A stretch of DNA of 37,041 bases from a virus, in the IMG/VR virus record IMGVR_UViG_3300045988_137870. One strand, given 5' to 3'. Below the pieces are notes generated by a model, which did not search any database, had not been told where the DNA came from, and saw nothing but the letters and a program-made list of their open reading frames with translations. A program made the translations under genes and the position numbers. Positions 29,947-36,739 of the stretch are shown here, piece after piece (position 1 is the stretch's first letter; each line of letters starts with the position of its first letter).

Positions 29947-30423
29947 ATGTGTGGGAAGACATTAAAACAAGTAATTATCGCTATCTGCTTATCGTTGGAA
30001 TTATCGTTTTGCTGTATACAAGTATCTGCGGATGGCAGCATTACGAATCAGGCAGAGCCAAAGCAGACTATCATGATATCAATAGCGGACTGGGACGAAT
30101 TGAAAACCGAATGGACCGGGCAGAAACTGGACTTAGCGCAACTCAGGCAGAAATTTACAATGCTGAATCTGAACTCCGAGGAGCAGCTGAAGCAGCTGGA
30201 AGTATTGCAGATAAAACTCGAAAGAACAGAGAAATCCTTGATGAATGCGACGACATCATTAACAGAAGTGAAAAAAGAACTGCAAGAATCGAGGTTATTA
30301 TTAGAAGAGTTGAAGAAAGAAATAAAGAAAATGGAGCACAAACAAGCGGTCATACGTAGGCAACGAGATATATATGCGGGGCTGTTTGTTATTACTGTGG
30401 GCGCAGCTATCGCTCGGAGGTGA
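29947..30423 (+). CDS. Signal peptide plus coiled coil plus C-terminal TM protein (unimolecular-spanin-like topology)
   Basis: The ATG lies 4 nt after an AGGAGGG SD. The N-terminal h-region ends in VSA|DG. There are long heptad repeats and a C-terminal helix (IYAGLFVITVGAAIA). Confidence 0.5.
   Translation: MCGKTLKQVIIAICLSLELSFCCIQVSADGSITNQAEPKQTIMISIADWDELKTEWTGQKLDLAQLRQKFTMLNLNSEEQLKQLEVLQIKLERTEKSLMNATTSLTEVKKELQESRLLLEELKKEIKKMEHKQAVIRRQRDIYAGLFVITVGAAIARR
29949..30359 (+). CDS. Alternative-frame ORF almost fully overlapping 29947-30423: N-terminal TM plus coiled coil (i-spanin-like type II topology)
   Basis: The GTG at 29949 shares the same SD. It has a TM helix (YLLIVGIIVLLYTSICGW) followed by a helical, charged region, and is enriched in GNN codons. 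Confidence 0.3.
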   Translation: MWEDIKTSNYRYLLIVGIIVLLYTSICGWQHYESGRAKADYHDINSGLGRIENRMDRAETGLSATQAEIYNAESELRGAAEAAGSIADKTRKNREILDECDDIINRSEKRTARIEVIIRRVEERNKENGAQTSGHT

Positions 30424-30448
30424 TCCTAAATTTAATCTATAGTATAAT
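30420..30448 (+). promoter_or_regulatory. Putative promoter of leader A (perfect -10 TATAAT at 30443-30448, weak -35)
   Basis: TATAAT was read directly. The hexamer 17 nt upstream is GTGATC. Confidence 0.4.
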
Positions 30449-30458
30449 ATAATTAATT

Positions 30459-30526
30459 GAGCCGTGGAGTATTGCACAAAGCGGACCGGAAAGAGCCTTG
30501 ATACAGAAATTGTATCAGGGCTTTTT
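30459..30526 (+). ncRNA. Leader/small RNA copy A: conserved 30-nt 5' block plus 11-bp terminator hairpin
   Basis: GAGCCGTGGAGTATTGCACAAAGCGGACCG is followed by GCCTTGATACA-GAAAT-TGTATCAGGGC and TTTTT. It is homologous to 33622-33691 on the - strand. Confidence 0.5.
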
Positions 30527-30544
30527 CCTTTCAAGGAGGATTAT

Positions 30545-31144
30545 ATGAGATGGTTTTTATATGCACCGCTACAATTACTCATTATGATAATCTGCTATAT
30601 TACCAATCCAGTTATAGTGATGTTTGTCGATGAAAATGGAGAACTGCGCGGATTCTTAAGGAAGTGGCAGACATTTGATGATTCTTGTGACAGTGAGGAC
30701 TGCGTAACAAAGTATGTCCCCAAATGGATGCAGTATGATTTCTATAAATATTACCGGGCGGAGAAACGGTATGACCCGAACTATGGACGGATGATGAAAA
30801 GATCAATTAACATTGCGCCGTTGCCACTGCTTGATAGATTGAAGAGGTATTGCTGCCGTATGTTCTGGCTGTCAAGAAACTGTGCATATGGTTTTGCAAT
30901 TGACTGGTTCGGAGCGACAATCGATCCGGATAATATAGTAGTCATTGATGATTATAGAGCAGGAGAATCCGAAAGGAATATATTTGTTACGCGGGATTTA
31001 AAATACTGGAAAATATATAATTCCATGCGAATTCTGAACACGAATTACCGATGGAAAATATATTTAGGATGGAAAATTCATAACGTGCAAAGTATACATA
31101 GAGCAATGCTGGCACTCCGAATGTGGTTCTGCAAAGCAAATTAA
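30545..31144 (+). CDS. Hypothetical N-terminally membrane-anchored protein (199 aa); moron next to attP
   Basis: The ATG at 30545 follows an AAGGAGGA SD. It has a TM helix (LYAPLQLLIMIICYITNPVIVMFV). I recognise no family. Confidence 0.65.
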   Translation: MRWFLYAPLQLLIMIICYITNPVIVMFVDENGELRGFLRKWQTFDDSCDSEDCVTKYVPKWMQYDFYKYYRAEKRYDPNYGRMMKRSINIAPLPLLDRLKRYCCRMFWLSRNCAYGFAIDWFGATIDPDNIVVIDDYRAGESERNIFVTRDLKYWKIYNSMRILNTNYRWKIYLGWKIHNVQSIHRAMLALRMWFCKAN

Positions 31145-31147
31145 AAG

Positions 31148-31178
31148 ACGGGGCGGGGAGAAATCCCTGCTCTTTTTT
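31148..31178 (+). terminator. Terminator-like hairpin after the moron
   Basis: The imperfect hairpin GCGGGGA-gaaa-TCCCTGC is followed by TCTTTTTTC. Confidence 0.5.
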
Positions 31179-31179
31179 C

Positions 31180-31399
31180 TTTGAGCGGCAAAAATACGGC
31201 AAAAATTTTAGCTAAAATACCGCATTTTAACGGTTATTGTTTTTATCATTATTTCTTGGCCACTCGGTAAAATCGGCAGAATCCAAATATAACGATTTTT
31301 AATATGTCCTAATAAAGCTTATGCTATAAAAAAGTATAAGCTGAAAAATCCCCGTTATTTGGGGACTTTTTGTGTAGACGGCAGACAAACGGCAAAAAT
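31180..31399. other. Candidate attP region with CGGCAAAAAT repeats (31186, 31197, 31390)
   Basis: It is non-coding and adjacent to the 3' end of int. It has three exact 10-mers as direct repeats and the inverted repeat ATAAGCTTAT...TATAAGCT (31315-31341). Confidence 0.4.
31344..31371. terminator. Bidirectional terminator (AAAAATCCCC-gttattt-GGGGACTTTTT)
   Basis: The hairpin has an A-tract on one side and a T-tract on the other. It lies downstream of int on the - strand. Confidence 0.6.
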
Positions 31400-32470
31400 T
31401 CATTTGTACATGGTTTCTATATATTGGTCTGCTTCTTTGCGAATATCATCTGTGTAATGAATATAGGTAGCTGCTACGGTAGTGACATTATCCCCTAAAA
31501 CAGCCGCAACAAGATTAATATCCTTTGATTTTGATAAAAGCATGGTGGCAAAGGTATGCCGTAAGGTATGAACGGAAATTCCCTGTTTTAATTTACGCAG
31601 CTGCCTATTCATGAGGGCATGTGTACTTGGTGTTGTCGGGATAACGCGCCCGTCAATAGCTGCAGGGGTATTCAGTTTCCACGTATTTAATCTGGCTGCC
31701 AATTTCGTATTCATATGTATGGTTCGGTTTCCGTTTCGTGATTTTACGGCTTTAAATCCCCGTTTTTCGGGAGATATCCAGTTATACTGTTTATCTATGG
31801 TGATTGTTTGTCTGGTGAAATTGATACTGTTCCATGTCAATCCGGCTATTTCTCCATATCTCATGCCGGTATTCAGAGCAATGAAAGCGATCATGTAAAA
31901 AATGGATGTATCACTTAATGCGTCAAGCAGTTGCAATGATTCTTTTTCTGTCAGTGCTTTTACCCGGTGGGGTGTCTTATCTTTCACCTGTGTGACACTG
32001 TCTGCCGGATTTGCTGTAATAATTTTATACGGATTGATGGCATAGTTAAAGATGGCACGAATCTGGGCGAAACGATTCTTTCTTGTACCACTGCTGAATC
32101 GCGCCATATCTTGATAGACATTGATCACATCTCCGGCGGTGATCTCCCGTATTTGTTTATTGCTCAGGGTAGGAATGCTGCGGAGCATAAAGAAATAGTT
32201 CCTTTTTGTGCTATATTCTAAAGAGGATCCTTTATCCCGCAAGTATATATTCTGTGTGAAACTTTTAAAGGTAATATCCGCAAGTTCTGGATCTGCTCCG
32301 CAGGCGGCATCTTCTTTTGCAGCAGCTAACAATTTGTCTTGGTATTGTTTTGCTTCCCGCAAGGTTTTAAATCCCTGTTTGGTTTTCTGTTTCCATTTAC
32401 TATTCACTTTATAGGACAGGACAAGGCAGATACTGCCGTTTTTTTCTCGTGTGGAAAATGAATATTCCAT
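31400..32470 (-). CDS. int: Tyrosine recombinase / phage integrase
   Basis: The internal start MEYSFSTREKNG (ATG 32470) follows an AAGGAG SD. Catalytic motifs are ...GMRYGEI..., HTLRHTFAT and ...AATYIHY. The longer ORF to 32698 overlaps the abi gene. Confidence 0.85.
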   Translation of the reverse strand: MEYSFSTREKNGSICLVLSYKVNSKWKQKTKQGFKTLREAKQYQDKLLAAAKEDAACGADPELADITFKSFTQNIYLRDKGSSLEYSTKRNYFFMLRSIPTLSNKQIREITAGDVINVYQDMARFSSGTRKNRFAQIRAIFNYAINPYKIITANPADSVTQVKDKTPHRVKALTEKESLQLLDALSDTSIFYMIAFIALNTGMRYGEIAGLTWNSINFTRQTITIDKQYNWISPEKRGFKAVKSRNGNRTIHMNTKLAARLNTWKLNTPAAIDGRVIPTTPSTHALMNRQLRKLKQGISVHTLRHTFATMLLSKSKDINLVAAVLGDNVTTVAATYIHYTDDIRKEADQYIETMYK

Positions 32471-32618
32471 AATAAAAATCAGCTCCTTTTCTGAAACAGG
32501 GCTGATTGTGCTATAATATATGCGTAACCAGCCTGTGGTAGGGTTGTTACAATTGCCGGAAGGATACCCTTTATCGTTCCGGTTCCCGTCGTCATATGTC
32601 CGTATGGCGGCGGGATTT

Positions 32619-33605
32619 TTATTTAAATATTTCATATAAACGACGTAGAAATTTCTCATGCAGACCGGTAACTTCTCTGACAAACGAGGCCGCGTCATTT
32701 GGGATATTATTTCCTAATGTCCTCATGGATGTTTCTATCATTTCATAGTTAATGGAAAATACTTTGTTTTGTTTAAATAACAGAGAAACACATAGTAGAG
32801 CGGCCAAAGCATCATCTTGACCATACTTATACAAATTTGTTTTTTCGTCAATTGGAATAAATAGTTTTTCATGAATTAAAAGTTTTGGTATTCTTGTCGT
32901 GCGGGACGCCTTTTGATCAATCTTATGAATATAAAGTCGATTATTATGCGCGCATTTATTGCGGATATTCGTAAGGTAATAAAGGATAGAAGACAAAATT
33001 GTTGGTGTCAATTTAGAATTGATTGACTTAGCAATTGTCTTTTTTAAATCATCTTGCAAATTATCATAAAAATTGCTCATAGTGCCAAAATCCATAATAG
33101 TATTTAATCCCCATAGTGGTACTTGATTATATACGTCCATAAAATGGCATATAGCTGGATGTTTTTTTCTTTCGTTAAATTTATTAATATCTCTTTGAAG
33201 TTTGTTGATTAATTTAATAACAAATTTTTTCTTTGAAGGGTCTTTTGTAAATGAGTCAGGAGAAAGATATTTCCAATGAGAAGATCCATATCGCAGAGAG
33301 AAATGAAGCGATATTAAAGATTTCATTTGGGTTTCAACTGTAACAATCGAATAAAGCAAGTTGTTCCTTAAAATAGAATCAAAATGATACAGTTGAAGAA
33401 AATGTTTTAGCGTCGTACCATTTTTATAATAATCTTCACCTAATTCTAAACTTTTAGCTTTGTCAATAAATGGTTCTTTATATCCGTTTATAAGATTATA
33501 GTACCCATATTGTAACAGGATTGAATCGGATCCGGATTGAAGTGAAATGTTCCTTTTATTTAGAATTTCTAATTGCTCTGAAATACTTGTTGGTTTAAGC
33601 TCCAT
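32619..33605 (-). CDS. Abi_2 (AbiD/AbiF-family) HEPN-like abortive-infection protein
   Basis: The start MELKPTS is at 33605. Features are ...LLQYGYYNLINGYK... and an Rx4H motif in LTNIRNKCAHNNRLY, typical of the Abi_2/HEPN family. Confidence 0.75.
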   Translation of the reverse strand: MELKPTSISEQLEILNKRNISLQSGSDSILLQYGYYNLINGYKEPFIDKAKSLELGEDYYKNGTTLKHFLQLYHFDSILRNNLLYSIVTVETQMKSLISLHFSLRYGSSHWKYLSPDSFTKDPSKKKFVIKLINKLQRDINKFNERKKHPAICHFMDVYNQVPLWGLNTIMDFGTMSNFYDNLQDDLKKTIAKSINSKLTPTILSSILYYLTNIRNKCAHNNRLYIHKIDQKASRTTRIPKLLIHEKLFIPIDEKTNLYKYGQDDALAALLCVSLLFKQNKVFSINYEMIETSMRTLGNNIPNDAASFVREVTGLHEKFLRRLYEIFK

Positions 33606-33621
33606 AAATATTCTCCGATAA

Positions 33622-33691
33622 AAGAAAATAGCCCTGACACAATATGTATCAGGGCTATTTTCGGTCCGCTTTGTGCAATACGCCACGGTTC
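33622..33691 (-). ncRNA. Leader/small RNA copy B: conserved 30-nt 5' block plus 11-bp terminator hairpin
   Basis: On the - strand, GAACCGTGGCGTATTGCACAAAGCGGACCG is followed by GCCCTGATACA-TAT-TGTGTCAGGGC and TATTTTCTTTT. Confidence 0.5.
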
Positions 33692-33702
33692 AATCTATAG
33701 TC

Positions 33703-33731
33703 ATGATACAGAAATTTAGATTTTTTGTCAA
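33703..33731 (-). promoter_or_regulatory. Sigma-70-type promoter of leader B/abi (TTGACA-17 nt-TATCAT)
   Basis: The -35 element is at 33731-33726 and the -10 at 33708-33703, read on the - strand. The conserved RNA block starts 11 nt downstream. Confidence 0.6.
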
Positions 33732-33855
33732 TCAAAAACGTAACAAAATTATCCTAAACCGTAACAAAAATATCCTAAAAGATGTTGAAAGTGACCTAAA
33801 AGGTGTCAAAAATTTTCAGGGTTTATGCAAACGATTTAAAACAATACCAATGTAT

Positions 33856-34872
33856 TCAACTTTTAATTACTTTTGACATATCTTTGACTATTTCAATTAT
33901 TTGTGTTGGCTCATCATTTGATCCATCTTCTTTTAAATAACCACTCTGGGGATTCGAAAAAATCGCTTTTGTCGTTTGCAACAAAACTGCATTGCGAATT
34001 TCCTCGTTACTAGTGGCCTTTACAAAAGTTTCAAAAGTACTTAGTGCATTTTGCTTATTTTTATTTATTATATAGTTATGTGATTGTGCTCGATAATTTT
34101 TGCCGCATGTTACTAGAATATAGAAAAGTACAATCAAACCGGTAAATCGTGGTAATATAGCTTGAGCAAATCGATATAAATATGGTTCCTCAAGTATAAT
34201 AGGACACCGCCAAAATGTTATAAAGGAATATGCCACAATGGCAACACTTACGCCGACAATCCATTTAAACCATATAGATTTACCTTTTTCAAACATATTC
34301 GCAGCTTCCTGGAAATTTACTGTGTGATTGGTTACACCTACGGAATTAGCCGCCTTCTGCACGGCCTCTGTTATTTCTCGTATATTTTCCTGTGCTGCTT
34401 CTCTTTCTTTTCTTGCCTGTTCTTGTTCCTGTTTAAAATTATCTAACGCCTCTTTGGCTTGTCGTTGTAAAGCTTCATAGTCAGTCCCCGCTTTAGTACA
34501 ATAGGCAACAATGGGAGAGATGGTTTTAAACCAAGAGTTATTATAGTTATTTGTGATGCTATCTATAAGACTCTGACGTACACTAGGCCCCTGCATAGAT
34601 GAGAAGCTCTTGATTTGTTCAATGGAATTAATAAAAGTATCCATTTCATTGTTCAAATCTCGTATTATTGACTCGGGAACTCTCATTATATCAATATCAG
34701 CTAAGCCTTTGAACAGATTGATCGCTGTTTCGAAATCGGTTTCTGCATCAGCGAAATTTAATTCAGATCCTAATTCATCACGGCGAATTAAATCTTTAGC
34801 GTTAAATTTTTTTATTGTGGAAAGATTTGTATCAAACTGAGTTCGTACTTCATCGGATAGTTTTATCGGCAT
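33856..34872 (-). CDS. Hypothetical protein: ~200-aa helical/coiled-coil cytoplasmic domain, two TM helices, helical C-terminal domain
   Basis: It has an AAGGAGGA SD. The TM segments are IWFKWIVGVSVAIVAYSFITFW and FTGLIVLFYILVTCG. It lies downstream of the repressor operon. Confidence 0.7.
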   Translation of the reverse strand: MPIKLSDEVRTQFDTNLSTIKKFNAKDLIRRDELGSELNFADAETDFETAINLFKGLADIDIMRVPESIIRDLNNEMDTFINSIEQIKSFSSMQGPSVRQSLIDSITNNYNNSWFKTISPIVAYCTKAGTDYEALQRQAKEALDNFKQEQEQARKEREAAQENIREITEAVQKAANSVGVTNHTVNFQEAANMFEKGKSIWFKWIVGVSVAIVAYSFITFWRCPIILEEPYLYRFAQAILPRFTGLIVLFYILVTCGKNYRAQSHNYIINKNKQNALSTFETFVKATSNEEIRNAVLLQTTKAIFSNPQSGYLKEDGSNDEPTQIIEIVKDMSKVIKS

Positions 34873-35749: not shown

Positions 35750-36424
35750 TTACAATTTCCCTCTGATTTCAACGACTTTCCCAAGAATAGTCACCGGAAG
35801 TTCCTTACATTCTTTTTTATTGTATGTTCTTGGTGTGTAAACGGACGGATTCCAGCCTATTAAGGTCAGTCCGGCATCTGATTTACTGATCTGCTTTACT
35901 GTGGCGTCGTTTCCGTTAACTAAGACAACAGCTATGTCGCCGCTGTCCACATCTGGCTGACGCCGAACAATGACCACATCTCCGTCCATCATGCGGGGTT
36001 CCATGGATTTACCCGCTATTTTTAGCGCAAAGTATTCGCCTGTCTTGGCCATGCTTTGCGGGATTTCTTCCCAATCTTCAATATCCGTGATAGCCTCGAT
36101 AGGAATGCCTGCAGCCACTTTACCGAGAACGGGAATGCGGATCCCTTTAGCGGGAGAAGATGGTTTGTCTGTCTTATCAGGTAGAAGAGTTACTAATTGA
36201 TTACCATCTAATTCTTTTAAAAATACATCCAAATCTAAACCGACGGCTTGTGCAATTTTGTCAAATGCTTGAATCGTTGGGGAAATAGGCTTACCTGTTG
36301 ACGGGTTAATTCCTTTTTCCAATTGACCTATATACGCTTTACTAAATCCACACATATCGGCCATTTCCTGCATGGAAAGCGAGTGCTTATCACGATAATT
36401 TTTAATCCATTCGCCTAATGTCAT
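35750..36424 (-). CDS. CI-like repressor: XRE-family HTH plus S24 (LexA-like) autopeptidase domain
   Basis: The HTH is LSMQEMADMCGFSKAYIGQLEKG. The S24 motifs are AGKSMEP...DGDVVIV...VKQI. The start at 36424 follows an AAGGGGTGA SD. Confidence 0.85.
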   Translation of the reverse strand: MTLGEWIKNYRDKHSLSMQEMADMCGFSKAYIGQLEKGINPSTGKPISPTIQAFDKIAQAVGLDLDVFLKELDGNQLVTLLPDKTDKPSSPAKGIRIPVLGKVAAGIPIEAITDIEDWEEIPQSMAKTGEYFALKIAGKSMEPRMMDGDVVIVRRQPDVDSGDIAVVLVNGNDATVKQISKSDAGLTLIGWNPSVYTPRTYNKKECKELPVTILGKVVEIRGKL

Positions 36425-36457
36425 ATTTATCACCCCTTTATCCATATCGTCAAATAT

Positions 36458-36521
36458 ATTTTACATTAGTGAAAAAATCTTGTCAAACATACTTGACAAG
36501 AAACGAAATGAACAGTATACT
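36458..36521. promoter_or_regulatory. Divergent back-to-back promoters with palindromic operator CTTGTCAA-N6-TTGACAAG (36479-36500)
   Basis: The + strand has TTGACA (36493-98), a 17-nt spacer and TATACT (36516-21). The - strand has TTGACA (36486-81), a 17-nt spacer and TAAAAT (36463-58). Confidence 0.7.
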
Positions 36522-36544: not shown

Positions 36545-36739
36545 ATGAGATATAGATTAAAGGAGCTAAGAGAGCAGCGAAAAATGTCACAAGAAGAATT
36601 AAGTGAAAAAGCAGGAGTATCGCGTCAGATTATTTCTACCCTTGAACAAGAAACGAGTGAAGTAAATACTACGACGGCTACGTTGCAAAAGCTTTCTGTT
36701 GCATTGAATTGCCCTCTTAGTGAAATTTTTTTGCCCTAA
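36545..36739 (+). CDS. Cro-like XRE-family HTH regulator
   Basis: It has an AAGGAGG SD and the HTH MSQEELSEKAGVSRQIISTLEQ. It is divergent from the repressor. Confidence 0.8.
   Translation: MRYRLKELREQRKMSQEELSEKAGVSRQIISTLEQETSEVNTTTATLQKLSVALNCPLSEIFLP

What the first reader, a model, noticed from the sequence alone, without database searches (positions are those of the whole stretch)
30420..33731. Inverted pair of homologous promoter / short structured RNA / terminator leaders in front of two unrelated accessory genes
Seen directly:
- The + strand 30459-30544 and the - strand 33691-33606 each span exactly 86 nt, from a shared GA(G/A)CCGTGG start to the ATG of the downstream gene.
- The first 30 nt are 28/30 identical (GAGCCGTGGAGTATTGCACAAAGCGGACCG vs GAACCGTGGCGTATTGCACAAAGCGGACCG).
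- Both then form an 11-bp hairpin: GCCTTGATACA-GAAAT-TGTATCAGGGC vs GCCCTGATACA-TAT-TGTGTCAGGGC.
- The only two stem differences keep pairing (U.G becomes C-G, and U-A becomes U.G).
- Each hairpin is followed by a T-tract, an SD and an ATG.
- Each copy sits about 10 nt downstream of a -10 element: TATAAT for copy A, and a full TTGACA-17-TATCAT promoter for copy B.

In the only open reading frame through the element the substitutions are mostly non-synonymous, and a 2-nt loop indel shifts the frame. Conservation is therefore at the RNA level, not the peptide level.

One copy precedes an Abi_2/HEPN gene. The other precedes an unrelated membrane protein. The pair brackets a 3.2-kb segment holding the moron, attP, int and abi.

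Inference: this is either a shared RNA antitoxin of the type III TA kind or a shared attenuator that co-regulates two prophage accessory genes. I recognise no known riboswitch or sRNA family in it.
Basis: partly seen in the sequence, partly recalled or inferred. Interest (0 to 1): 0.85.

Follow-up and report, generated by a model that had tools for sequence, protein, structure and literature searches.

The report
AbiF-type antitoxin RNA leader, duplicated
The two inverted leaders are real copies of one short promoter-hairpin-terminator RNA gene; this RNA normally sits in front of Abi_2/AbiF abortive-infection toxin genes, where by analogy it should act as the RNA antitoxin and attenuator, and the phage carries a second copy, without a toxin gene, in front of an unrelated membrane-protein gene.

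Summary
A 30-nt block occurs exactly twice in the window, inverted, at 30459-30488 (+) and 33691-33662 (-). Each copy lies 10-11 nt after a -10 element and is followed by an 18-bp intrinsic terminator, an SD and an ATG.

About 90 related loci show the block is a 4-bp hairpin (CCGY/RCGG, fourth pair U.G/U-A/C-G/G-C) closing a conserved 15-nt loop. The terminator after it has been replaced by at least seven unrelated hairpin sequences.

The leader is native to one clade of Abi_2/AbiD/AbiF HEPN genes (45-100% aa identity). 39 of 40 distinct Abi_2 upstream regions of all classes carry a hairpin plus T-run. This matches the AbiF type III toxin-antitoxin systems characterised in 2025 (RCd22-AbiFCd; PbAbiF-AbiFr, PDB 8VZ6).

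The RNA class is not in Rfam and does not match the abiF motif RF03085.

Copy A is a toxin-less copy. More distant DUF7338 genes (40-59% identity) lack the leader. Copy A's leader, terminator and SD nearly equal the Abi leader of locus L080. Such orphans are common in gut phages and better conserved than their flanks.

The inverted pair is not a conserved unit. Verdict: a new sequence class of a known kind, plus a testable idea that the orphan acts as extra antitoxin or an anti-AbiF decoy.

The parts
30443..30448 (+). -10 element (TATAAT) of the copy A promoter. There is no clear -35. A second overlapping TATAAT lies at 30448-30453.
   Evidence: Read. The -10 is conserved in all 19 DUF7338-type leaders even where the sequence further upstream differs. 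It is not listed by the consensus scan, which needs a -35.
30459..30488 (+). Copy A of the conserved block: GAG, a 4-bp stem CCGU/GCGG closing the 15-nt loop GGAGUAUUGCACAAA, then ACCG.
   Evidence: Covariance model hit 30455-30492 at 60.7 bits. Stem covariation is shown.
30488..30533 (+). Copy A intrinsic terminator. The 18-bp hairpin spans 30488-30526 (core GCCUUGAUACA / UGUAUCAGGGC) and is followed by a U-rich tail.
   Evidence: Fold of -33.5 kcal/mol, z -5.45. Compensatory changes among orphan alleles are seen. It probably also ends the late/lysis operon, whose last ORF stops at 30423; that step is inference.
30533..31144 (+). SD AAGGAGG (30533-39) and the DUF7338 gene (30545-31144), a 199-aa protein of unknown function whose N-terminus looks hydrophobic by eye (no membrane-topology prediction was run).
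   Evidence: Pfam DUF7338, E 1.9e-31. phrog_2143, function unknown. No PADLOC hit.
31320..31335 (.). Approximate attP crossover point.
   Evidence: Homology to nine prophage-form loci stops at window 31329. Homology to the int side of prophage L086 starts at 31325.
31400..32470 (-). Tyrosine integrase.
   Evidence: Pfam Phage_integrase plus Arm-DNA-bind_4.
32619..33605 (-). Abi_2 / AbiD/AbiF-type HEPN protein (328 aa) with motif RNKCAH; the predicted toxin.
   Evidence: Pfam Abi_2, E 6e-41. PADLOC AbiD, E 8e-46. PDB 8vz6_A (PbAbiF), E 2.5e-13.
33617..33662 (-). Copy B intrinsic terminator. The 18-bp hairpin spans 33662-33624 and is followed by a U-tract.
   Evidence: In L146 a cargo swap has its breakpoint exactly at its 3' end (window 33619).
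33662..33691 (-). Copy B of the conserved block, with loop GGCGUAUUGCACAAA.
   Evidence: Covariance model hit 33658-33695 at 60.0 bits.
33703..33731 (-). Copy B promoter, TTGACA-17-TATCAT. The predicted start is about 33695-33696, which would give an RNA of about 79 nt.
   Evidence: 11 of 12 matches. The promoter region is conserved in L080 and L086. The start site is inferred from spacing.
33735..33776 (.). Two tandem 21-bp direct repeats immediately upstream of the -35 of promoter B. They may be a regulator-binding site; their role is unknown.
   Evidence: the repeat finder family D4. Partly conserved upstream of the same promoter in L080 and L086.

Best explanation
Each copy is a small RNA gene that also serves as a leader. 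A sigma-A-type promoter starts transcription 4-5 nt before a 30-nt block. The block forms a 4-bp hairpin presenting a conserved 15-nt loop. About 45 nt later, a strong intrinsic terminator stops most transcripts. The main product is therefore predicted to be a 75-80-nt RNA, and only read-through reaches the downstream gene.

Copy B is the cognate partner of the Abi_2/AbiF HEPN RNase downstream. The pair would work as a type III toxin-antitoxin and abortive-infection module:
- the terminator keeps toxin synthesis low;
- the abundant short RNA binds the AbiF dimer and blocks its active site;
- loss of this balance during infection frees the toxin.

Copy A is the same RNA gene without a toxin. 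It was placed by recombination between the end of the lysis operon and the DUF7338 gene, next to attP. It supplies extra antitoxin RNA in trans. That would protect the phage's own lytic growth, or, in the many phages that have only this copy, act against AbiF of resident prophages. It also gives DUF7338 a promoter and a low, attenuated expression level.

What is shown: the anatomy, the distribution, the covariation, and the homology of the protein to AbiF. What is inferred by analogy with RCd22-AbiFCd and PbAbiF-AbiFr: transcription, termination, RNA-protein binding, toxicity, and any role of copy A.
For: **Architecture.** The order is promoter, short RNA, Rho-independent terminator, RBS, abi. 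This is the arrangement mapped experimentally for RCd22-abiFCd. In that system the short RNA is the main transcript and neutralises the toxin in cis and in trans by direct binding (PMC12373285).

**Protein.** It matches Pfam Abi_2 and PADLOC AbiD. It is homologous to PbAbiF, which was solved with its ncRNA (8vz6_A, E 2.5e-13), and the RNxCxH motif aligns.

**Co-occurrence.** Abi_2 homologues at 72, 59, 56, 55, 53, 51, 50, 47 and 45% identity carry the same block at the same distance from a -10.
- They sit in prophages and in one chromosomal site with no phage genes in the 4 kb read (L087).
- The block stays nearly invariant while the terminator takes at least seven unrelated sequences.

**Structure.** Three stem pairs are invariant. 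The fourth is U.G in 14 sequences, G-C in 3, C-G in 1 and U-A in 1, and is never unpaired. The covariation score exceeds all 500 shuffles. U.G pairs make the fold specific to the sense strand.

**Generality.** 39 of 40 distinct Abi_2 upstream regions, including the phiC2 control, have a stable hairpin plus T-run. They fall into several sequence classes.

**Copy A is secondary.**
- DUF7338 homologues at 59, 41 and 40% identity follow late genes with no leader.
- Copy A's block, terminator and SD nearly equal the Abi leader of L080 up to CAAGGAG.

**Orphans look selected.** In 19 DUF7338-type loci the mean pairwise difference is 0.052 in the block, 0.142 in the terminator and 0.221 at third codon positions. 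Terminator changes are compensatory and the -10 is kept.

**Orphan phages lack the toxin.** Their contigs do not appear in the viral scan for this Abi_2 clade.
Against: - There is no transcript, binding or toxicity data for this RNA or protein.
- The block does not match Rfam abiF RF03085 even at E up to 10. That model does find phiC2.
- The block's stem is only 4 bp, with one covarying pair.
- The leader also directly heads a Fic gene (L146). It also stands before integrase or recombinase genes with no abi gene (L013, L099, L147). In two loci it stands before another leader class or a second hairpin plus a distant Abi_2 (L101, L017). It therefore behaves as a portable cassette. That fits a generic expression or attenuation role as well as it fits orphan antitoxins.
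- Two clade members (L084, L086) have different loops, with no obvious link to protein divergence.
- A role for copy A beyond promoter and terminator is pure inference.
Confidence: 0.58

Rival explanations
1. A generic cis-acting expression cassette. The promoter plus leaky terminator only sets a low expression level for toxic or costly prophage accessory genes (Abi_2, Fic, DUF7338). The conserved block would be a stability, processing or transcription-start element. The RNA has no antitoxin activity.
For: - Three unrelated gene families are directly headed by the leader.
- In L146 the cargo swap is bounded exactly by the leader's end.
- In C. difficile the terminator alone already counteracts toxicity in cis.
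Against: - A setting of expression level does not need a near-invariant 15-nt loop kept across Abi_2 proteins that have diverged to 45% identity, while the promoter and terminator sequences turn over.
- The associations with DUF7338 and Fic are shallow: DUF7338 is one lineage, its more distant homologues lack the leader, and Fic is one locus.
- Family precedent shows direct RNA-protein neutralisation.
Confidence: 0.2
2. A site for processive antitermination, like lambda nut or the pR'-tR' unit. A phage or host factor would recognise the promoter-proximal block and let RNA polymerase read through the terminator. Both accessory genes would then switch on together at one stage of the phage cycle.
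For: - Two inverted copies of a conserved promoter-proximal RNA element, each followed by a strong terminator, resemble nutL/nutR.
- The block keeps a fixed distance from the -10.
Against: - By eye I saw no boxA/boxB-like sequence and no good -10-like pause element in the block; no pattern search for these motifs was run.
- No N- or Q-like gene was identified.
- The same leader works in very different phage backbones (LexA-type or XRE+ImmA repressors) and at a chromosomal site with no phage genes in the 4 kb read. That argues against a dedicated phage-encoded reader.
- Most phages carry only one copy.
Confidence: 0.08
3. A trans-acting base-pairing small RNA. The conserved 5' region would be a seed against a host or phage mRNA, and the downstream genes would be incidental.
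For: - A conserved 5' region followed by a variable terminator is the usual build of base-pairing sRNAs.
- Several loci have no gene directly behind the element.
Against: - No convincing complementary site exists in the window. The best non-self duplexes score -29 to -35 kcal/mol, and several of them contain bulges or interior loops.
- The 19-mer or its complement occurs in 185,579 reference genomes only in these leaders, plus two chance hits in coding regions.
- The deep, specific link with one protein family is not explained.
Confidence: 0.07
4. A DNA-level feature. The inverted repeats would be recombination anchors or the ends of an invertible or exchangeable 3.2-kb segment, or simply a relic of cassette shuffling with no present function for copy A.
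For: - The arms are 50 nt and 90% complementary, and flank int.
- The leader does act as a recombination boundary in evolution. In L146, Fic replaces abi exactly at the leader. The copy A and L080 junctions lie at the SD.
Against: - No related locus shows the segment inverted.
- No other locus or contig returned by the pattern scans carries two copies.
- The U.G-containing, strand-specific covarying stem and the compensatory terminator changes point to selection on RNA.
- The orphan block is more conserved than its neighbours, so it is not a decaying relic.
Confidence: 0.05

Closest known systems
RCd22-AbiFCd of Clostridioides difficile prophage phi027 / phiC2 (PMC12373285)
   Same: - It is a prophage-borne Abi_2/AbiF HEPN toxin.
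- A SigA promoter drives a short ncRNA that ends at a Rho-independent terminator, followed by the RBS and abi.
- The short RNA is the main transcript.
- It sits beside the lysis module or at the prophage end.
   Different: - RCd22 carries two abiF motifs (RF03085: a 6-bp GC stem, an internal loop and a 3-bp stem) in about 100-130 nt.
- Here there is one 30-nt block with a 4-bp stem and a 15-nt loop, and it does not match RF03085.
- This phage also has a second copy with no toxin gene.
PbAbiF-AbiFr (PDB 8VZ6; Zilberzwige-Tal et al. 2025, as cited in PMC12373285 and PMC12737573)
   Same: - The protein is homologous (E 2.5e-13).
- There is one single-motif ncRNA per monomer.
- The RNA is encoded in cis upstream.
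   Different: The protein shows significant similarity over query residues 6-226 only; percent identity was not computed.
ToxIN/AbiQ type III TA and the phage-borne pseudo-ToxI decoy (PMC3475682)
   Same: - An RNA antitoxin gene is followed by a terminator that sets the RNA-to-toxin ratio.
- It is the precedent for a phage carrying an antitoxin-like RNA without the toxin in order to escape abortive infection.
   Different: - ToxI is a tandem array of 36-nt repeats processed by a ToxN endoribonuclease.
- Here there is a single unit, no array, and a HEPN toxin.
- A decoy function for copy A is only a hypothesis.
Lambda nutL/nutR and the pR'-6S-tR' unit
   Same: A conserved promoter-proximal RNA element followed by a terminator, with two inverted copies in one phage.
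   Different: - No boxA/boxB or pause element.
- No antiterminator gene was found.
- The element travels with abi genes into unrelated backbones.

Membership tests
AbiD/AbiF (Abi_2) type III toxin-antitoxin with cis ncRNA | The toxin is an Abi_2-family HEPN protein with an R-x4-H active-site motif. | tested here: met
   Pfam Abi_2, E 6e-41. PADLOC AbiD, E 8e-46. 8vz6_A, E 2.5e-13, with RNKCAH aligned to RNSCCH.
AbiD/AbiF (Abi_2) type III toxin-antitoxin with cis ncRNA | A short non-coding RNA is encoded immediately upstream on the same strand. It has its own promoter and an intrinsic terminator before the toxin's RBS. | tested here: met
   This is met by sequence prediction only. Promoter 33731-33703, block plus 18-bp terminator, then SD and ATG. 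39 of 40 distinct Abi_2 upstream regions show the same plan.
AbiD/AbiF (Abi_2) type III toxin-antitoxin with cis ncRNA | The RNA is conserved and co-inherited with the toxin across homologues, and its structure is supported by covariation. | tested here: met
   The block is present before clade members at 45-100% identity. The fourth stem pair is UG, GC, CG or UA and is never unpaired. Support is modest: there is one covarying pair.
AbiD/AbiF (Abi_2) type III toxin-antitoxin with cis ncRNA | The protein is toxic, and the RNA neutralises it by direct binding, in cis and in trans. | not testable with these tools
   This needs expression, rescue and co-purification experiments.
Rfam abiF RNA motif (RF03085) | A match to the covariance model: a 6-bp GC-rich stem, an internal loop CAAAUC and a 3-bp inner stem. 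| tested here: not met
   There is no hit at the gathering threshold in the window, nor at E up to 10 on either leader. The model does find phiC2 at 37.6 bits. None of 13 other Abi_2 loci matched either.
ToxIN-like type III TA | The antitoxin is a tandem array of short repeats processed by a ToxN/AbiQ-fold toxin. | tested here: not met
   There is a single block per leader. No tandem family lies between the promoter and the gene. The toxin is Abi_2/HEPN.
Riboswitch or sensing attenuator | A conserved alternative (antiterminator) pairing that competes with the terminator. | tested here: not met
   Terminator sequences are unrelated between loci while the block is constant, so no conserved block-terminator pairing is possible. 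MFE folds keep the two hairpins independent.
Phage-borne antitoxin-RNA decoy (pseudo-ToxI type) | A phage carries an RNA like a TA antitoxin but lacks the cognate toxin. | tested here: met
   About 18 viral contigs and 23 metagenome loci have the leader before DUF7338. None of these viral contigs appears in the scan for this Abi_2 clade. L025 has the window's int at 97% identity, but homology stops at the abi stop codon.
Phage-borne antitoxin-RNA decoy (pseudo-ToxI type) | The RNA protects the phage from the toxin-bearing host. | not testable with these tools
   This needs plaque or efficiency-of-plating assays with and without the orphan.
RNA anti-CRISPR (solitary CRISPR repeat) | The block is identical or nearly identical to a CRISPR repeat found in arrays. 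| tested here: not met
   The 19-mer occurs only singly, in leaders, in 185,579 reference genomes. There are no arrays.

The most novel reading that the evidence does not exclude
Toxin-less copies of an AbiF antitoxin RNA are a widespread RNA-based counter-defence of temperate gut phages. Placed at the end of the late operon, next to attP, they would flood the cell with decoy antitoxin during lytic growth. That would disarm AbiF modules carried by resident prophages. In a phage that itself carries the toxin, as here, the same copy would give self-immunity during induction.
Probability: 0.2. Interest if true: 0.75.

Novelty: new variant of a known kind. Interest (0 to 1): 0.5.

Why it matters
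AbiF-type HEPN toxins with RNA antitoxins were characterised only in 2025. They are proposed to be the ancestors of Cas13.

This locus adds three things:
- An RNA class outside the only curated model (RF03085). It is common in human-gut Lachnospiraceae and Veillonellaceae prophages.
- At least three further uncurated leader classes seen in passing. The RNA side of this family is therefore much more diverse than the databases show.
- A concrete, easily tested case in which the antitoxin RNA has been uncoupled from its toxin and kept under selection in many phages. This could be a natural RNA decoy against abortive infection, or a self-immunity device for prophage induction.

It also shows how such leaders act as exchange points for accessory cargo (Abi_2, Fic, DUF7338).

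Tried and rejected
- **Rfam.** Nothing at the gathering threshold in the window. Low-threshold hits on both leaders (Thr_leader, SdsR and others) align mainly through the terminator hairpin.
- **GenBank phage collection.** No DNA match to the leader.
- **RNA-RNA target search in the window.** The first script timed out. The second found only the element's own antisense plus background-level duplexes.
- **Operator idea.** The cI-cro intergenic palindrome CTTGTCAA-N6-TTGACAAG is unrelated to the block.
- **Leader-peptide idea.** A GTG ORF runs in frame for 81 nt into both genes. However, it has no SD, the GTG is lost in L008, and a stop appears in L002.
- **CRISPR-repeat mimic.** Rejected because no arrays exist.
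- **Chance 17-19-mer hits.** L027, L030 and L033 lie inside coding regions and were set aside.
- **Invertible segment or transposon ends.** No other locus or contig from the pattern scans has two copies.
- **Fic cargo of L146.** A search for relatives in viral contigs found none. The Fic gene next to Abi_2 in L088 has no leader.
- **The Cell 2025 AbiF paper.** It could not be read. Weinberg 2017 does not discuss abiF in its main text.

Full report
**1.

Reading 30300-33900 shows two copies of the same layout.
- Copy A, + strand: TATAAT (30443-30448), 10 nt, then GAGCCGTGGAGTATTGCACAAAGCGGACCG (30459-30488). A hairpin and T-run follow, then AAGGAGG and ATG at 30545.
- Copy B, - strand: TTGACA-17-TATCAT (33731-33703), 11 nt, then GAACCGTGGCGTATTGCACAAAGCGGACCG (33691-33662). 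A hairpin and T-run follow, then an SD and ATG at 33605.

Both spans from the block to the ATG are 86 nt, and the blocks are 28/30 identical.

Support from the tools:
- The repeat finder reports inverted arms of 50 nt at 90%.
- The 27-nt core matches twice and nowhere else, with up to 3 mismatches allowed. No shuffle gave a match.
- Each copy folds into a weak 5' hairpin plus an 18-bp terminator in which the A-rich flank pairs with the U-tract. Energies are -33.5 and -32.8 kcal/mol, z about -5.5.
- The promoter scan lists promoter B at 11 of 12 matches. Copy A has no clear -35.

The genes behind the leaders are DUF7338 (30545-31144) and an Abi_2 protein (32619-33605, - strand). A tyrosine integrase lies between them.

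**2. What the element is, from related sequences.**

Exact-pattern scans found the block in 26 viral contigs. They also found it in Fusicatenibacter, Dialister and a Veillonellaceae genome and in 51 metagenome contigs. Three short matches inside coding regions were chance.

In every real case a -10 lies 10-12 nt upstream and an intrinsic terminator follows. The terminator has at least seven unrelated sequences.

I then fetched homologues of the Abi_2 protein and their contigs. The same leader sits before clade members at 72, 59, 55, 53, 51, 50, 47 and 45% identity. These include a chromosomal site between corA and argS with no phage genes in the 4 kb read (L087).

Those more distant copies reveal the structure:
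- The block is a 4-bp stem CCGY/RCGG closing a 13-15-nt loop, flanked by GAG and ACC.
- Three pairs never vary.
- The fourth pair is U.G (14 sequences), G-C (3), C-G (1) or U-A (1), and is never unpaired.
- The covariation score beats all 500 shuffles and all slid controls.
- The U.G pairs make the fold specific to the sense strand.

A covariance model of the block finds exactly the two window copies (60.7 and 60.0 bits, next best 8.9). It finds none of the other Abi_2 leader classes.

**3. The link with AbiF.**

A scan of viral contigs for Abi_2 relatives gave 43 loci. Their upstream regions fall into several sequence classes:
- Class 1 is ours.
- Class 2 is GGAACGUACUCCGGUGUCCUUCGGGCCCGGGGUC.
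- Class 3 is a streptococcal class.
- Class 4 is a further one.

Nearly all have the same plan of promoter, short conserved RNA and terminator. Together with the look-ups and phiC2, 39 of 40 distinct regions have a stable hairpin plus T-run just before the gene.

This plan was shown experimentally for C. difficile phi027/phiC2 (PMC12373285):
- A SigA promoter drives RCd22, which carries two abiF motifs. A Rho-independent terminator, the RBS and abiF follow.
- The short RNA is the main transcript.
- The RNA represses abiF in cis and neutralises the toxin in trans by direct binding.

PbAbiF was solved with its ncRNA (8VZ6). AbiD/F proteins as a group are now viewed as two-component protein-RNA systems.

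The window protein matches 8vz6_A at E 2.5e-13 with the HEPN motif aligned. It also matches PADLOC AbiD at E 8e-46.

The curated abiF motif does not match our block, although it does find phiC2. It also misses the other classes. This is therefore a new RNA class of a known kind of system.

**4. Copy A is a secondary copy without a toxin.**

- DUF7338 homologues at 59, 41 and 40% identity follow late genes directly, with no promoter, block or terminator.
- The Abi leader of L080 is almost the same as copy A through the terminator and the SD (…GGGCTTTTTCCTTTCAAGGAG). It diverges only after that point.
- In the metagenome sample the leader heads DUF7338 in 23 loci, all one lineage at 80-92% identity (one short partial match reads 100%). 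It heads Abi_2 in 20 loci, which are diverse.
- In the remainder it precedes one of the following:
  - an abi remnant (L097, L103);
  - an integrase or serine recombinase (L099, L104, L132, L147);
  - another leader class plus a distant Abi_2 (L101);
  - a Fic gene (L146).
- In L146, Fic replaces abi exactly between the end of the terminator (window 33619) and the abi stop (32623). The window-type int lies beyond.
- The viral contigs with the DUF7338-type copy do not appear among contigs carrying this Abi_2 clade.
- L025 has the window's int at 97% identity, but homology stops at the abi stop codon.

The orphan copy looks selected. In 19 loci the block has a mean pairwise difference of 0.052. 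The terminator has 0.142 and third codon positions have 0.221. Terminator changes are compensatory (A-U to G-C, C-G to U.G), and the -10 is kept where the sequence upstream is replaced.

**5. Genome setting.**

Homology to nine prophage-form loci ends at window 31329. Homology to the int side of L086 starts at 31325. The attP crossover therefore lies there, and the window is in the excised or circular order.

In a lysogen, copy A and DUF7338 sit at one prophage end, and int, abi and copy B at the other. No other locus or contig returned by the pattern scans has two copies. The abi cassette (window 32468-33845) is shared with an otherwise different phage (L001). The inverted pair is thus a coincidence of two separately mobile cassettes, not a unit.

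**6. Mechanism and rivals.**

The best reading (0.58) has two parts.
- Copy B is the antitoxin and attenuator RNA of an AbiF-type type III TA module.
- Copy A is an orphan copy of that RNA gene. It supplies antitoxin in trans and gives DUF7338 a promoter with attenuated output.

The rivals are:
- A generic low-expression cassette (0.20). It is favoured by the cargo diversity. It does not explain the invariant loop kept across deep protein divergence.
- A nut/Q-like antitermination site (0.08). By eye I saw no motifs and I identified no reader gene, and the element works in unrelated backbones.
- A base-pairing sRNA (0.07). No target was found in the phage, and no long complement exists in reference genomes.
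- A DNA-level role (0.05). The element is a real recombination boundary in evolution, but the signals of selection are RNA-like.

Transcription, binding and toxicity are all inferred.

**7. Novelty and score.**

The kind of system is known since 2025. What is new is the RNA class, which is absent from Rfam, and the frequent conserved toxin-less copies in gut phages. These suggest an RNA decoy or self-immunity role analogous to pseudo-ToxI (PMC3475682). I rate it a new variant of a known kind, with interest 0.5.

Noticed in passing
window 33735-33776: Two tandem 21-bp direct repeats (AAAACGTAACAAAATTATCCT / AAACCGTAACAAAAATATCCT) abut the -35 of the abi leader promoter. They are partly conserved before the same promoter in L080 and L086. 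They could be a binding site for a regulator of the abi module.
   Followed up: partly
window 31320-31335: Homology to prophage-form relatives breaks at 31329, and homology to the int side of L086 begins at 31325. This marks the attP crossover and shows the window is in the excised or circular gene order.
   Followed up: partly
L040-L079, about 60-200 nt before the Abi_2 start (for example L044 about 1880-1990, L066 about 1880-1995, L078 about 1890-1965): There are at least three further conserved leader classes in front of phage Abi_2 genes, each with a promoter and terminator. None is matched by Rfam abiF RF03085 or by my class-1 model.
   Followed up: partly
L146 3081-4226: A Fic-family gene (HPFEDGNGRIGR motif) replaces abi exactly between the class-1 leader and the window-type integrase. 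This slot is therefore an exchange point for toxic cargo.
   Followed up: partly
L028 (Fusicatenibacter) versus L031/L034 (Dialister): Nearly identical leader-Abi_2 cassettes occur in a Lachnospiraceae genome and, twice, in one Dialister (Negativicutes) genome. This suggests recent transfer across classes, or a binning error in the assemblies.
   Followed up: no
L084 2917-5376; L101 (element at 2291, then a second leader plus Abi_2); L017 985-3399: Tandem Abi_2 genes sit next to each other, each with a different leader class. In L101 and L017 a class-1 leader stands in front of a second leader or hairpin that precedes a distant Abi_2.
   Followed up: no
L077 2966-3045: A skipping-rope RNA (RF02924, 63.9 bits) lies just downstream of an Abi_2 gene in a viral contig.
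   Followed up: no
window 36470-36500: The palindrome CTTGTCAAACATACTTGACAAG lies between the divergent LexA-like repressor (35750-36445, -) and the cro-like HTH gene (36545-36739, +). It is probably the immunity operator and is unrelated to the leader block.
   Followed up: no
window 32584-32615 (+): A strong terminator-like hairpin on the + strand (14 pairs, followed by TTTTTATTT) lies between abi and int. It is oriented to stop transcription that runs antisense through int from the DUF7338 side.
   Followed up: no
window 30464-30544 and 33686-33606: In both copies a GTG inside the block opens a frame that runs exactly 81 nt, without a stop, into the downstream ATG. ORF callers therefore extend both genes by 27 codons. 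Relatives break this frame, so it is an artefact.
   Followed up: yes
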